From NCBI GenBank assembly GCA_938016205.1, contig CALLWV010000088.1, forward strand, positions 1 to 25,524: a stretch of 25,524 bases of DNA. Reading direction: 5' to 3'. A program made the position numbers and the translations under genes. The stretch's first letter is position 1. Each line of letters begins with the position of its first letter. The notes beneath the pieces were generated by a model, which was not told the DNA's origin, searched no databases, and saw only the letters and a list, made by a program, of their open reading frames with translations. The DNA is from an uncultured Bacteroidia bacterium (GTDB taxonomy: Bacteria > Bacteroidota > Bacteroidia > JANWVE01). Below are positions 18,991 to 19,218 of this stretch, piece after piece.

Positions 18991-19113
18991 TTATTTTTAT
19001 TTTGACTTCTCAAAGAGAAGGATAGTTTCAAAGTTTTGGGTTTGTTTTATTTAAGTATAACTCTTAACCCTGTCTGGACTTAATCTTTGTTTTTCGTATC
19101 TTGATATTGCGTA

Positions 19114-19145
19114 CAAAGTTACGTAAAATTGTATAAAATTGCAAA
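19114..19145 (-). promoter_or_regulatory. Candidate internal promoter for gldN inside the gldM-gldN gap (minus strand TTTG, 20 nt, TAACTTTG)
   Basis: On the minus strand, TAACTTTG is the complement of 19114-19121 and TTTG is the complement of 19142-19145, separated by a 20-nt spacer. It lies ~125 nt upstream of the gldN start. Confidence 0.35.
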
Positions 19146-19175
19146 TTTTTGAAAAAATATTTTATTTTTTAATTT

Positions 19176-19205
19176 CCTGCTCTCCTGCATATACAGGAGA
19201 GCAAG
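19176..19205. promoter_or_regulatory. GC-rich stem-loop (10-bp perfect stem plus extension, 6-nt loop), 14 nt downstream of the gldM stop
   Basis: CCTGCTCTCCTG (19176-19187), loop CATATA, CAGGAGAGCAAG (19194-19205). The core TGCTCTCCTG/CAGGAGAGCA is a perfect reverse complement. It is not followed by a U-tract on the minus-strand transcript, so it is not a canonical terminator. Confidence 0.5.
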
Positions 19206-19218
19206 AAAAAAGAGAGAT

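What the first reader, a model, noticed from the sequence alone, without database searches (positions are those of the whole stretch)
18991..19218. Unusually long gldM-gldN gap with a strong GC-rich hairpin and a consensus internal promoter
In characterised gldKLMN/porKLMN clusters the four genes are tightly packed and co-transcribed. Here gldM and gldN are separated by 228 nt. A 10-12 bp GC-rich stem-loop lies 14 nt after the gldM stop (19176-19205) and lacks a U-tract, so it looks like a partial attenuator or an RNA-stabilising element rather than a terminator. A near-perfect TTTG-N20-TAACTTTG promoter sits on the operon strand at 19114-19145. Together these suggest that gldN dosage is uncoupled from gldKLM in this organism: the hairpin gives transcriptional read-through control and gldN has its own promoter.
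Basis: seen in the sequence. Interest (0 to 1): 0.5.

Follow-up and report, generated by a model that had tools for sequence, protein, structure and literature searches.

The report
Hairpin and own promoter before gldN
In this uncultured Bacteroidia lineage the last gene of the type IX secretion core operon (gldN) sits behind an unusually long spacer that holds a conserved RNA hairpin and a conserved promoter, so it is probably transcribed partly on its own; this is a well-supported but fairly ordinary piece of operon fine-tuning, and another species already provides a precedent.

Summary
gldK, gldL, gldM and gldN lie on the minus strand. The gldM-gldN spacer is 228 nt to the first ATG and 255 nt to the start codon conserved in relatives. 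In 59 other dereplicated Bacteroidota loci the median spacer was about 21 nt and the longest 155 nt.

The hairpin (19173-19208, 16 bp as RNA) is the most stable local hairpin in the whole window. It has no U-tract. All five clade relatives carry one 11-13 nt after the gldM stop, with different stem sequences: 9 of 16 pairs show double-sided changes.

The TTTG-N20-TAACTTTG promoter (19145-19114) lies in a block where about 75% of columns are invariant, inside an otherwise scrambled spacer. The only change inside its -7 box falls at an 'n' position of the consensus.

Published TSS mapping in Flavobacterium psychrophilum already shows two gldN-specific promoters.

I favour this model: the hairpin is a non-terminating cap or barrier at the 3' end of the gldKLM message, and gldN gets extra transcription from its own sigma-A promoter through a leader of about 146 nt. 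Similar U-tract-less hairpins after gldM occur in three other distant lineages that lack a consensus promoter.

No function was tested. Novelty: a new variant of known kinds. Interest is modest.

The parts
19219..21072 (-). gldM/porM coding sequence (617 aa); stop codon TAA at 19221-19219
   Evidence: Pfam GldM_1st/2nd/3rd domains; NCBIfam TIGR03517 at 229.7 bits, above its cut-off of 180
19173..19208 (-). Post-stop stem-loop UUUCUUGCUCUCCUGU-AUAU-GCAGGAGAGCAGGAAA: 16 bp, 4-nt loop, starts 10 nt after the gldM stop, no U-tract
   Evidence: most stable hairpin in the window. Present in all 5 clade relatives with compensatory changes: 76 of 78 cells paired and 9 of 16 pairs changed on both sides
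19146..19163 (-). Conserved A/T-rich block AAAATATTTTTTCAAAAA just upstream of the -33 element (possibly UP-element-like)
   Evidence: Nearly invariant in the five-sequence alignments. The function is inferred only
19114..19145 (-). Bacteroidota sigma-A-type promoter: -33 TTTG (19145-19142), 20-nt spacer, -7 box TAACTTTG (19121-19114)
   Evidence: for the match. for conservation: the -7 box is TAACTTTG in four relatives and TAATTTTG in one, the -33 is TTTG in four and CTTG in one, and the spacing is always 20
18964..19109 (-). Predicted gldN leader of about 146 nt. The TSS at about 19109 is inferred from the -7 box spanning -12 to -5. The leader is poorly conserved and has no terminator-like site
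   Evidence: Position rule from PMC9723704. Divergence of the leader. No Rfam family. No conserved small ORF
18199..18963 (-). gldN/porN coding sequence from the conserved ATG (254 aa). The ORF's first ATG at 18990 is absent in L002 and L003
   Evidence: Pfam GldN at 82.7 bits; alignments
18149..18177 (-). Canonical intrinsic terminator after gldN (13-bp stem followed by UUUUUUCUUUUU)
22130..22173 (-). Second U-tract-less hairpin, after the gldK stop (context for the finding)
   Evidence: Relatives L009, L002 and L003 carry a hairpin here with a different sequence
23522..23552 (-). Operon promoter upstream of gldK: (G)TTG-N20-TAAATTTG, giving a leader of about 155 nt
   Evidence: Invariant in the window, L002 and L003

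Best explanation
The 255-nt gldM-gldN spacer is a two-part punctuation of the T9SS core operon.

(1) A stable stem-loop forms in the mRNA about 10 nt after the gldM stop codon. It has no U-tract, so it is a poor intrinsic terminator. Most likely it acts as a barrier or cap at the 3' end of the gldK-L-M message, blocking 3'-to-5' exonucleases after cleavage in the A/U-rich stretch downstream. It may also pause or attenuate some polymerases.

(2) About 60 nt further on, a consensus Bacteroidota sigma-A promoter (TTTG-N20-TAACTTTG) starts a gldN transcript with a leader of about 146 nt.

gldN mRNA would therefore come from two sources, read-through from the gldK promoter and its own promoter, so its level is set partly independently of gldKLM.

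Shown: the elements exist, they are far beyond chance, and they are under selection in the clade. The hairpin is selected as a structure and the promoter as a sequence with fixed spacing.

Inferred: promoter activity, the TSS position, read-through, and the stabiliser role.
For: Hairpin.
- It is the strongest in the window.
- All five orthologous spacers have one of -24.5 to -29.8 kcal/mol (z -5.7 to -9.0), starting 11-13 nt after the stop, and none is followed by a U-tract.
- In a model-guided alignment, 9 of 16 pairs change on both sides and 76 of 78 cells stay paired.
- The loop varies from 4 to 8 nt and the arm sequences differ, which argues against a protein-binding DNA palindrome.

Not a strong terminator.
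- Canonical U-tract terminators are used at the true operon end.
- A similar hairpin follows gldK, yet gldL and gldM have no -7 motif of their own.
- Three other distant lineages, L040, L012 and L007/L021 (GldM no more than 38% identical between lineages), carry a hairpin 8-18 nt after the gldM stop with no U-tract and no consensus promoter. Their gldN must therefore be reached by read-through.
- The hairpin is tied to the gldM stop and not to the gldN start, which fits a 3'-end element.

Promoter.
- Exact match to the consensus.
- The same motif precedes many genes in the window.
- About 75% of columns are invariant in the promoter block, against 25% or fewer in most of the spacer.
- No terminator-like site lies between it and gldN.

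Precedent. gldN-specific transcription start sites were mapped in F. psychrophilum (PMC9723704).
Against: - There are no transcript data for this uncultured lineage, so promoter activity and read-through are untested.
- The comparison rests on only five sequences, three of them close (GldN 98-100% identical). The effective sample is about three.
- The pair counts come from an alignment fitted to the structure.
- In F. psychrophilum the array signal for the short gldM-gldN segment is about 4.5 log2 units below both flanking genes. If that is real, it would fit a genuine drop in transcription after gldM, although the 46-nt probe region may be unreliable.
- The proposed T9SS stoichiometry (PorL5 PorM2 PorK2 PorN2)x18 (PMC9170169) gives no obvious reason for N to differ from M.
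- Strand asymmetry of the hairpin is weak. The sense strand folds more stably in 4 of 5 relatives and less stably in L003.
Confidence: 0.55

Rival explanations
1. The hairpin is an efficient U-tract-independent terminator or attenuator. On this reading gldKLM and gldN are separate transcription units and gldN is made only, or almost only, from its own promoter. This is the stronger form of the first reader's idea.
For: - The hairpin is very stable, lies right after the stop codon, and is conserved.
- A strong conserved promoter follows it, which would be needed if read-through were low.
- The F. psychrophilum array signal drops sharply in the gldM-gldN segment.
Against: - The same genome uses classical hairpin-plus-U-tract terminators where operons really end.
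- The comparable hairpin after gldK has no promoter motif downstream of it before gldL or gldM.
- Post-gldM hairpins in L040, L012, L007 and L021 are not followed by a consensus promoter.
- From general knowledge, hairpins without a U-tract terminate poorly with bacterial RNA polymerases.
Confidence: 0.2
2. The conserved elements act at the DNA level. The inverted repeat, or the invariant spacer sequence GCAATTTTATACAA, would be an operator for a regulator that controls the gldN promoter. That regulator might be shared with the gldK upstream region, which carries the same 21-mer.
For: - The promoter spacer is more conserved than a spacer strictly needs to be.
- TTTGCAnnnTTATACAATTTT occurs exactly at 19145-19125 and at 23632-23612.
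- TTATACAA is enriched in the window, 12 copies against 3.3 expected.
Against: - The hairpin arms and the loop length change between relatives while pairing is kept, which is the opposite of what an operator would show.
- The shared 21-mer was found post hoc. In an unbiased local alignment it scores 27, against a shuffle mean of 25.1 and a maximum of 38.
- TTTGCAATTTT also starts another promoter match, at 4872-4842, so it may simply be an extended -33 element.
- The TTACGTAA palindrome at 19119-19126 is not conserved.
Confidence: 0.1
3. The long spacer is a neutral scar left by a lost gene, an insertion, or a MITE/REP-like element. On this reading the promoter-like and hairpin-like features have no role in gld expression.
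For: - The leader part of the spacer evolves fast and has no recognisable function.
- One distant relative (L006) carries two tandem gldN paralogues, so gene loss is conceivable.
Against: - tblastn with all collected GldM and GldN proteins found no gene remnant in the spacers. The only matches were each locus's own reading-frame extension just upstream of the gldN start.
- No second copy of the hairpin exists in the window or in any of the 88 loci held at the time of the search, apart from the near-identical L001.
- The sharp contrast between the invariant promoter block, the compensatory hairpin and the scrambled remainder indicates purifying selection.
Confidence: 0.07
4. The promoter mainly drives a regulatory leader or small RNA (a riboswitch, attenuator or sRNA) and not simply gldN mRNA.
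For: The predicted leader of about 146 nt is long. The median 5' UTR is 24 nt in F. psychrophilum and 32 nt in B. thetaiotaomicron (PMC9723704). The whole spacer folds better than shuffles, z = -3.6.
Against: - No Rfam family matches, even at permissive thresholds. The only hits are sub-threshold eukaryotic miRNA and snoRNA models.
- The leader sequence is the least conserved part of the spacer.
- No terminator-like site lies inside it.
- Most of the folding signal comes from the hairpin upstream of the promoter.
Confidence: 0.08

Closest known systems
gldN-specific internal promoters of Flavobacterium psychrophilum (TSS 882660, SM6/ECF-type; TSS 882680, SM1/sigma-A-type; Guerin et al. 2021, PMC9723704)
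   Same: gldN, the last gene of gldKLMN, has its own mapped transcription starts immediately downstream of gldM. One of them uses a TAnnTTTG-type sigma-A promoter. gldN expression clusters apart from gldM.
   Different: In F. psychrophilum the gap is 49 nt, the promoters overlap the end of gldM, and the leaders are 3 and 23 nt. An ECF-type promoter is also present, and no hairpin was visible in the roughly 80 nt of sequence the supplement quotes around the two start sites. Here the gap is 255 nt, there is one consensus sigma-A promoter and a leader of about 146 nt, no ECF-like motif was noticed by eye (no formal scan was run), and a strong hairpin precedes the promoter. The activity here is predicted, not mapped.
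porP-porK-porL-porM-porN operon of Porphyromonas gingivalis and gldKLMN of F. johnsoniae and F. columnare (reported as co-transcribed)
   Same: Same four genes in the same order. An operon promoter lies upstream of the first gene. Co-transcription is cited in PMC5445135 and PMC5790014.
   Different: No porP/sprF gene lies directly upstream here; a divergent HAD hydrolase does instead. The M-N junction is about ten times longer than the typical 21 nt and carries extra signals.
Intercistronic mRNA-stabilising stem-loops, such as REP elements in E. coli malE-malF and the hairpins of the Rhodobacter capsulatus puf operon (from general knowledge, not checked here)
   Same: A stable hairpin without a U-tract placed just 3' of an upstream cistron inside an operon. 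It is compatible with read-through and with differential stability of operon segments.
   Different: It is not a dispersed repeat family, with a single copy per locus. No decay data exist. Here it is combined with a downstream internal promoter.
Canonical Rho-independent terminators
   Same: G+C-rich stem-loop directly after a stop codon.
   Different: There is no 3' U-tract, and the flanks are reversed (a U-run 5' and an A-run 3', which only lengthen the helix). True terminators with U-tracts lie nearby in the same window.

Membership tests
Bacteroidota primary-sigma (sigma-A / sigma-ABfr) promoter | -7 box TAnnTTTG | tested here: met
   TAACTTTG at 19121-19114 on the minus strand. Kept as TAACTTTG or TAATTTTG in all five relatives.
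Bacteroidota primary-sigma (sigma-A / sigma-ABfr) promoter | -33 element TTTG/TTG at a suitable distance (about 17-23 nt) upstream of the -7 box | tested here: met
   TTTG at 19145-19142 with a 20-nt spacer. The spacing is invariant in relatives, and the -33 is CTTG in L002. The gldK promoter also has N20.
Bacteroidota primary-sigma (sigma-A / sigma-ABfr) promoter | A primary 5' end about 5 nt downstream of the -7 box, with activity dependent on the box | not testable with these tools
   Needs dRNA-seq, 5'-RACE or a reporter assay. The organism is an uncultured MAG.
Rho-independent (intrinsic) terminator | Stable G+C-rich stem-loop at the 3' end of a gene | tested here: met
   -26.4 kcal/mol, the best in the window.
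Rho-independent (intrinsic) terminator | U-rich tract immediately 3' of the stem | tested here: not met
   The tail is GGAAAUUAAAAAAUAAAAU and is not reported by the terminator scan. The tails in all five relatives are A-rich.
gldKLMN/porKLMN T9SS core operon | Adjacent co-oriented genes for GldK, GldL, GldM and GldN | tested here: met
   Pfam and NCBIfam hits. GldN passes Pfam (82.7 against 23) but is below NCBIfam's cut-off (46.7 against 85.9).
gldKLMN/porKLMN T9SS core operon | All four genes on one transcript | not testable with these tools
   Only indirect evidence: there is no promoter motif before gldL or gldM, and no canonical terminator before the end of gldN.
Intercistronic mRNA-stabiliser hairpin (REP/puf type) | Stable stem-loop downstream of the upstream cistron that does not terminate transcription | tested here: inconclusive
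   The structure, its position and the missing U-tract fit. Read-through is only inferred from lineages and junctions that lack a downstream promoter.
Intercistronic mRNA-stabiliser hairpin (REP/puf type) | The upstream segment has a longer mRNA half-life that depends on the hairpin | not testable with these tools
   Requires decay measurements.
Any curated RNA family (Rfam 15) | Score at or above the family's gathering threshold | tested here: not met
   No hits at gathering thresholds in the window. Only sub-threshold chance hits in 18900-19300.

The most novel reading that the evidence does not exclude
A hairpin without a U-tract placed 8-18 nt after the gldM stop codon may be a recurrent way of punctuating the T9SS core operon that has arisen independently. 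It was seen in four distantly related Bacteroidota lineages and was rare at L-M junctions. It would set the ratio of motor (GldLM) to ring (GldN) message after transcription. The window's clade would then have gone one step further by acquiring a consensus promoter behind the hairpin, making gldN a semi-independent unit with a long leader.
Probability: 0.25. Interest if true: 0.45.

Novelty: new variant of a known kind. Interest (0 to 1): 0.3.

Why it matters
The T9SS core genes are usually treated as one operon with one promoter. If gldN is routinely, or in some lineages strongly, uncoupled from gldKLM, three things follow.
- Expression studies and complementation designs that use only the region upstream of gldK or porP would miss part of the control.
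- The amount of the outer ring protein could be tuned separately from the motor.
- The pairing of a U-tract-less hairpin with a consensus promoter gives a compact, testable module for studying read-through and mRNA stability in Bacteroidota, a phylum whose transcription signals are still poorly charted.

Even so, internal promoters and intercistronic hairpins are well-known devices, and a gldN-specific promoter has already been mapped in F. psychrophilum. The gain is incremental.

Tried and rejected
- **Rfam.** Nothing at gathering thresholds over the whole window, and only sub-threshold eukaryotic miRNA/snoRNA chance hits at permissive E-values over 18900-19300.
- **Small ORFs in the spacer.** There are 21-26 aa ORFs. 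The only ATG-initiated one (19119-19190) starts in the hairpin loop, and its ATG is ATA in L005, so it is not conserved.
- **Remnant of a lost gldN/gldM paralogue.** tblastn of 168 GldM/GldN ORFs against the five spacers matched only each locus's own reading-frame extension just upstream of the gldN start.
- **Dispersed repeat (REP/MITE).** No other copy in the window or in the 88 loci held at the time of the search, apart from the near-identical L001.
- **E. coli-type sigma-70 promoters.** Matches are no more frequent than in shuffles: 16 against 17.0, and 80 against 78.7. This is as expected for Bacteroidota, so the plus-strand TTGATA-17-TAAAAT match at 19101-19129 was discarded.
- **Operator palindrome.** TTACGTAA (19119-19126) and the 26-nt imperfect palindrome I1 are not conserved in relatives.
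- **Shared 21-mer between the gldN promoter and the gldK upstream region.** It matches exactly but is not significant in an unbiased local-alignment test. It is kept only as a passing note.
- **Stoichiometry rationale (N needed in excess of M).** Not supported by the proposed (L5 M2 K2 N2)x18 model.
- **Is a consensus promoter before gldN general?** No. A strict TAnnTTTG lies within 120 nt upstream of gldN in 4 of 59 other lineages, close to the background rate of 0.048 per 120 nt.
- **Is a junction hairpin general?** No. In 45 short-gap loci the junction is less structured than the gldM interior (median -7.2 against -10.8 kcal/mol).
- **MAFFT alignment of the hairpins.** It put L002 and L003 out of register, so a covariance-model-guided alignment was used instead.
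- **Literature search for U-tract-less terminators in Bacteroidetes.** It found nothing usable.

Full report
**What is there**

The minus strand of the window carries the T9SS core genes, identified by Pfam and NCBIfam:
- gldK, 22182-23360
- gldL, 21150-22037
- gldM, 19219-21072
- gldN, 18199-18990

The nearest public sequences are metagenome-assembled genomes labelled only 'Bacteroidia bacterium'. Outside a small clade with 86-100% GldN identity, the closest GldN homologues fall to about 40% identity. The lineage is therefore poorly sampled.

**Checking the observation**

That ATG is missing in two relatives. The ATG at 18963 (MIKR..., a signal-peptide-like N-terminus) is conserved in all of them, so the real spacer is 255 nt.

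To judge 'unusually long', I collected 80 gldN loci from metagenomes with a GldN alignment. [quoted passage not shown]
- Among 59 dereplicated loci outside the clade, the M-N gap has a median of about 21 nt and a maximum of 155 nt.
- The clade members have 226-261 nt.
- M-N is normally the tightest of the three junctions (medians: K-L 64, L-M 49, M-N 21; these three medians are not dereplicated). Here it is the widest (144, 77, 255).

The hairpin is real. As RNA on the operon strand it has 16 bp (19173-19208), including two G-U pairs that become C-A mismatches on the opposite strand. It is the most stable 44-nt hairpin on either strand of the 25.5-kb window, at -26.4 kcal/mol against -20.4 for the runner-up. 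It is not followed by a U-tract. The organism does use textbook terminators: a 13-bp stem plus UUUUUUCUUUUU follows gldN, and a second hairpin with a U-tract serves the convergent gene.

The promoter match TTTG-N20-TAACTTTG is exactly at 19145-19114. The window holds 7 matches against 1.9 expected. TAnnTTTG boxes, TAACTTTG in particular, sit just upstream of many genes in the window. This organism therefore uses the usual Bacteroidota promoter type. E. coli-type -35/-10 matches are not enriched.

**Comparative evidence within the clade**

I compared five distinct versions of the spacer: the window, L009, L005, L002 and L003.

The spacer is largely scrambled between the more distant members, except for one block: AAAATATTT..CAAAAATTTGCAATTTTATACAA...TAACTTTGTA. 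About 75% of the columns in that block are invariant, against 25% or fewer in most of the rest.
- The 20-nt spacing never changes.
- The -33 element is TTTG in four relatives and CTTG in one.
- The only change inside the -7 box (TAACTTTG to TAATTTTG) falls at an 'n' position of the TAnnTTTG consensus.

This is a clean phylogenetic footprint of a promoter. The gldK promoter, (G)TTG-N20-TAAATTTG at 23552-23522, is equally invariant. The K-L and L-M spacers contain no -7 motif.

The hairpin behaves in the opposite way. Its sequence changes but its structure stays.
- Every relative has a hairpin of -24.5 to -29.8 kcal/mol (z -5.7 to -9.0) starting 11-13 nt after the stop. Loops are 4-8 nt, and no relative has a U-tract.
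- MAFFT could not keep L002 and L003 in register. I therefore built a covariance model from the three close sequences and let it align all five.
- In that alignment 76 of 78 cells are standard pairs, and 9 of 16 pairs change on both sides.
- Caveat: an alignment fitted to a structure leans towards that structure, and the effective sample is about three lineages.

Varying arm sequences and loop lengths argue against a protein-binding DNA palindrome and for a nucleic-acid structure.

**What the hairpin probably does**

Three observations argue that it is not an efficient terminator.
1. The genome uses U-tract terminators where transcription units really end.
2. A comparable U-tract-less hairpin follows the gldK stop (22130-22173) in all four clade members that cover this junction. 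No promoter motif precedes gldL or gldM, so polymerase must pass that hairpin.
3. In other lineages, an M-N gap of 40 nt or more nearly always contains a strong hairpin 8-18 nt after the gldM stop, again with no U-tract. This holds for L040, L012, L007 and L021. L007 and L021 are related to each other, but their hairpin sequences differ; GldM identity between lineages is otherwise 38% or less. None of them has a consensus promoter after the hairpin.

Strong hairpins (-15 kcal/mol or better) are much rarer at the other junctions with gaps of 40 nt or more. Only 2 of 29 L-M junctions have one. Four of 26 K-L junctions do, and three of those four come from the window's own clade. A rough Fisher test on an earlier lineage tally (5 of 7 M-N lineages against 5 of 52 other junctions) gave p of about 0.001. 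That tally counted L007 and L021 as separate lineages; after merging them the M-N count is 4 of 6, and the test was not re-run.

Short-gap junctions, which are the majority, are less structured than the gldM interior (median -7.2 against -10.8 kcal/mol). This fits an open start region for gldN.

The hairpin's fixed distance from the gldM stop, together with its variable distance from the gldN start, points to a 3'-end element of the upstream message. My preferred reading is therefore a barrier or cap for gldKLM mRNA that polymerase largely reads through, perhaps with some pausing or attenuation. It would be followed in this clade by an extra sigma-A promoter for gldN. The stabiliser role is an inference by analogy with classical intercistronic hairpins, which I cite from general knowledge. 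It was not tested.

**What is already known**

Reviews describe porPKLMN and gldKLMN as co-transcribed (PMC5445135, PMC5790014). The F. psychrophilum transcriptome map adds to this picture (PMC9723704).
- It reports two start sites specific to gldN, inside a 49-nt gldM-gldN gap: 882660 (ECF-type motif SM6) and 882680 (sigma-A motif SM1).
- It states that GldN is 'transcribed from two promoters'.
- It places gldN in a different expression cluster from gldM.
- Its array signal for the short junction segment is far below both flanking genes.

An independent gldN promoter is therefore not new in kind. What differs here is the tenfold longer spacer, a full-consensus sigma-A promoter, a predicted leader of about 146 nt, and the conserved hairpin in front. 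For comparison, median 5' UTRs are 24 nt in F. psychrophilum and 32 nt in B. thetaiotaomicron.

I looked for a functional rationale in stoichiometry. The proposed (PorL5 PorM2 PorK2 PorN2)x18 model gives none (PMC9170169).

**Other readings considered**

The spacer matches no Rfam family. It has no conserved small ORF and no detectable gene remnant. It is not a repeated element in the sequence available. A 21-mer is shared exactly between the gldN promoter and the region upstream of gldK. It is intriguing but does not beat shuffles in an unbiased local-alignment test, and part of it (TTTGCAATTTT) recurs in another promoter match.

**Verdict**

The promoter and the hairpin are both under selection, and independent transcription of gldN is plausible and has a precedent. 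The attenuator-versus-stabiliser question remains open, and the evidence leans against strong termination. This is a new variant of known devices in an under-sampled lineage. Interest is modest, at about 0.3. The most interesting residue is the recurrence of post-gldM hairpins in unrelated lineages.

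Noticed in passing
window 15575-18061 (+); also L009 5236-7722 (-): An 828-aa protein with a strong Pfam match to the major vault protein shoulder domain (1.2e-32) plus a vault repeat. It is convergent with gldN and lies next to gldN in a relative too. It has no NCBIfam match.
   Followed up: no
window 23361-23552 (-), especially about 23395-23470: The gldK promoter, (G)TTG-N20-TAAATTTG, gives a leader of about 155 nt. Much of that leader is almost invariant between the window, L002 and L003 (86-93% GldN identity). 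It contains an AT-rich inverted repeat (23447-23468 / 23482-23503). It is far better conserved than the gldN leader, which suggests a regulatory leader for the whole operon.
   Followed up: partly
window 22130-22173 (-): A second stable hairpin without a U-tract follows the gldK stop. It is present with a different sequence in L009, L002 and L003 (-13.6 to -27 kcal/mol).
   Followed up: partly
L040 3470-3625, L012 2736-2807, L007 5940-6000, L021 3892-3991: Distantly related gld operons with M-N gaps of 60-155 nt each carry a strong hairpin (-17 to -29 kcal/mol) 8-18 nt after the gldM stop. None has a U-tract or a consensus promoter. L040 has two further hairpins in the same spacer.
   Followed up: partly
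window 21073-21095 (-) and 22038-22060 (-): gldM is preceded by a Shine-Dalgarno-like AAGGAG/GAAAGGAGA in three of the four clade members (GAAAGAAAA in L002), which is unusual for Bacteroidota. gldL is preceded by a conserved TAAAATCATAAAATCAAT, identical in three of the four clade members (TAAATCATAAAGTAAA in L003), directly before its ATG.
   Followed up: no
window 19125-19145 (-) and 23612-23632 (-); weaker inverted copy at 23518-23538 (+): The 21-mer TTTGCAnnnTTATACAATTTT occurs exactly in the gldN promoter and about 90 nt upstream of the gldK promoter. TTATACAA is enriched in the window, 12 copies against 3.3 expected. The match is not significant in an unbiased local-alignment test, so it may be chance or an extended -33 element.
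   Followed up: partly
window 19219-21072 (-) and 18199-18963 (-): GldM is 617 aa, about 100 residues longer than the 524-position family model. GldN is only 254 aa and scores below the NCBIfam GldN cut-off (46.7 against 85.9) while passing Pfam's. These T9SS core proteins are divergent.
   Followed up: no
window 11345-11352 (-) and 11452-11459 (+): Two divergent genes each have a TAACTTTG box ending only about 4 nt before the annotated ATG. This implies leaderless or near-leaderless mRNAs, or mis-set start codons.
   Followed up: no
L006 4902-6798: A distant relative has two tandem gldN paralogues after gldM. Its gldM appears split by a frameshift, with a second GldM-like ORF ending at 4866.
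   Followed up: no
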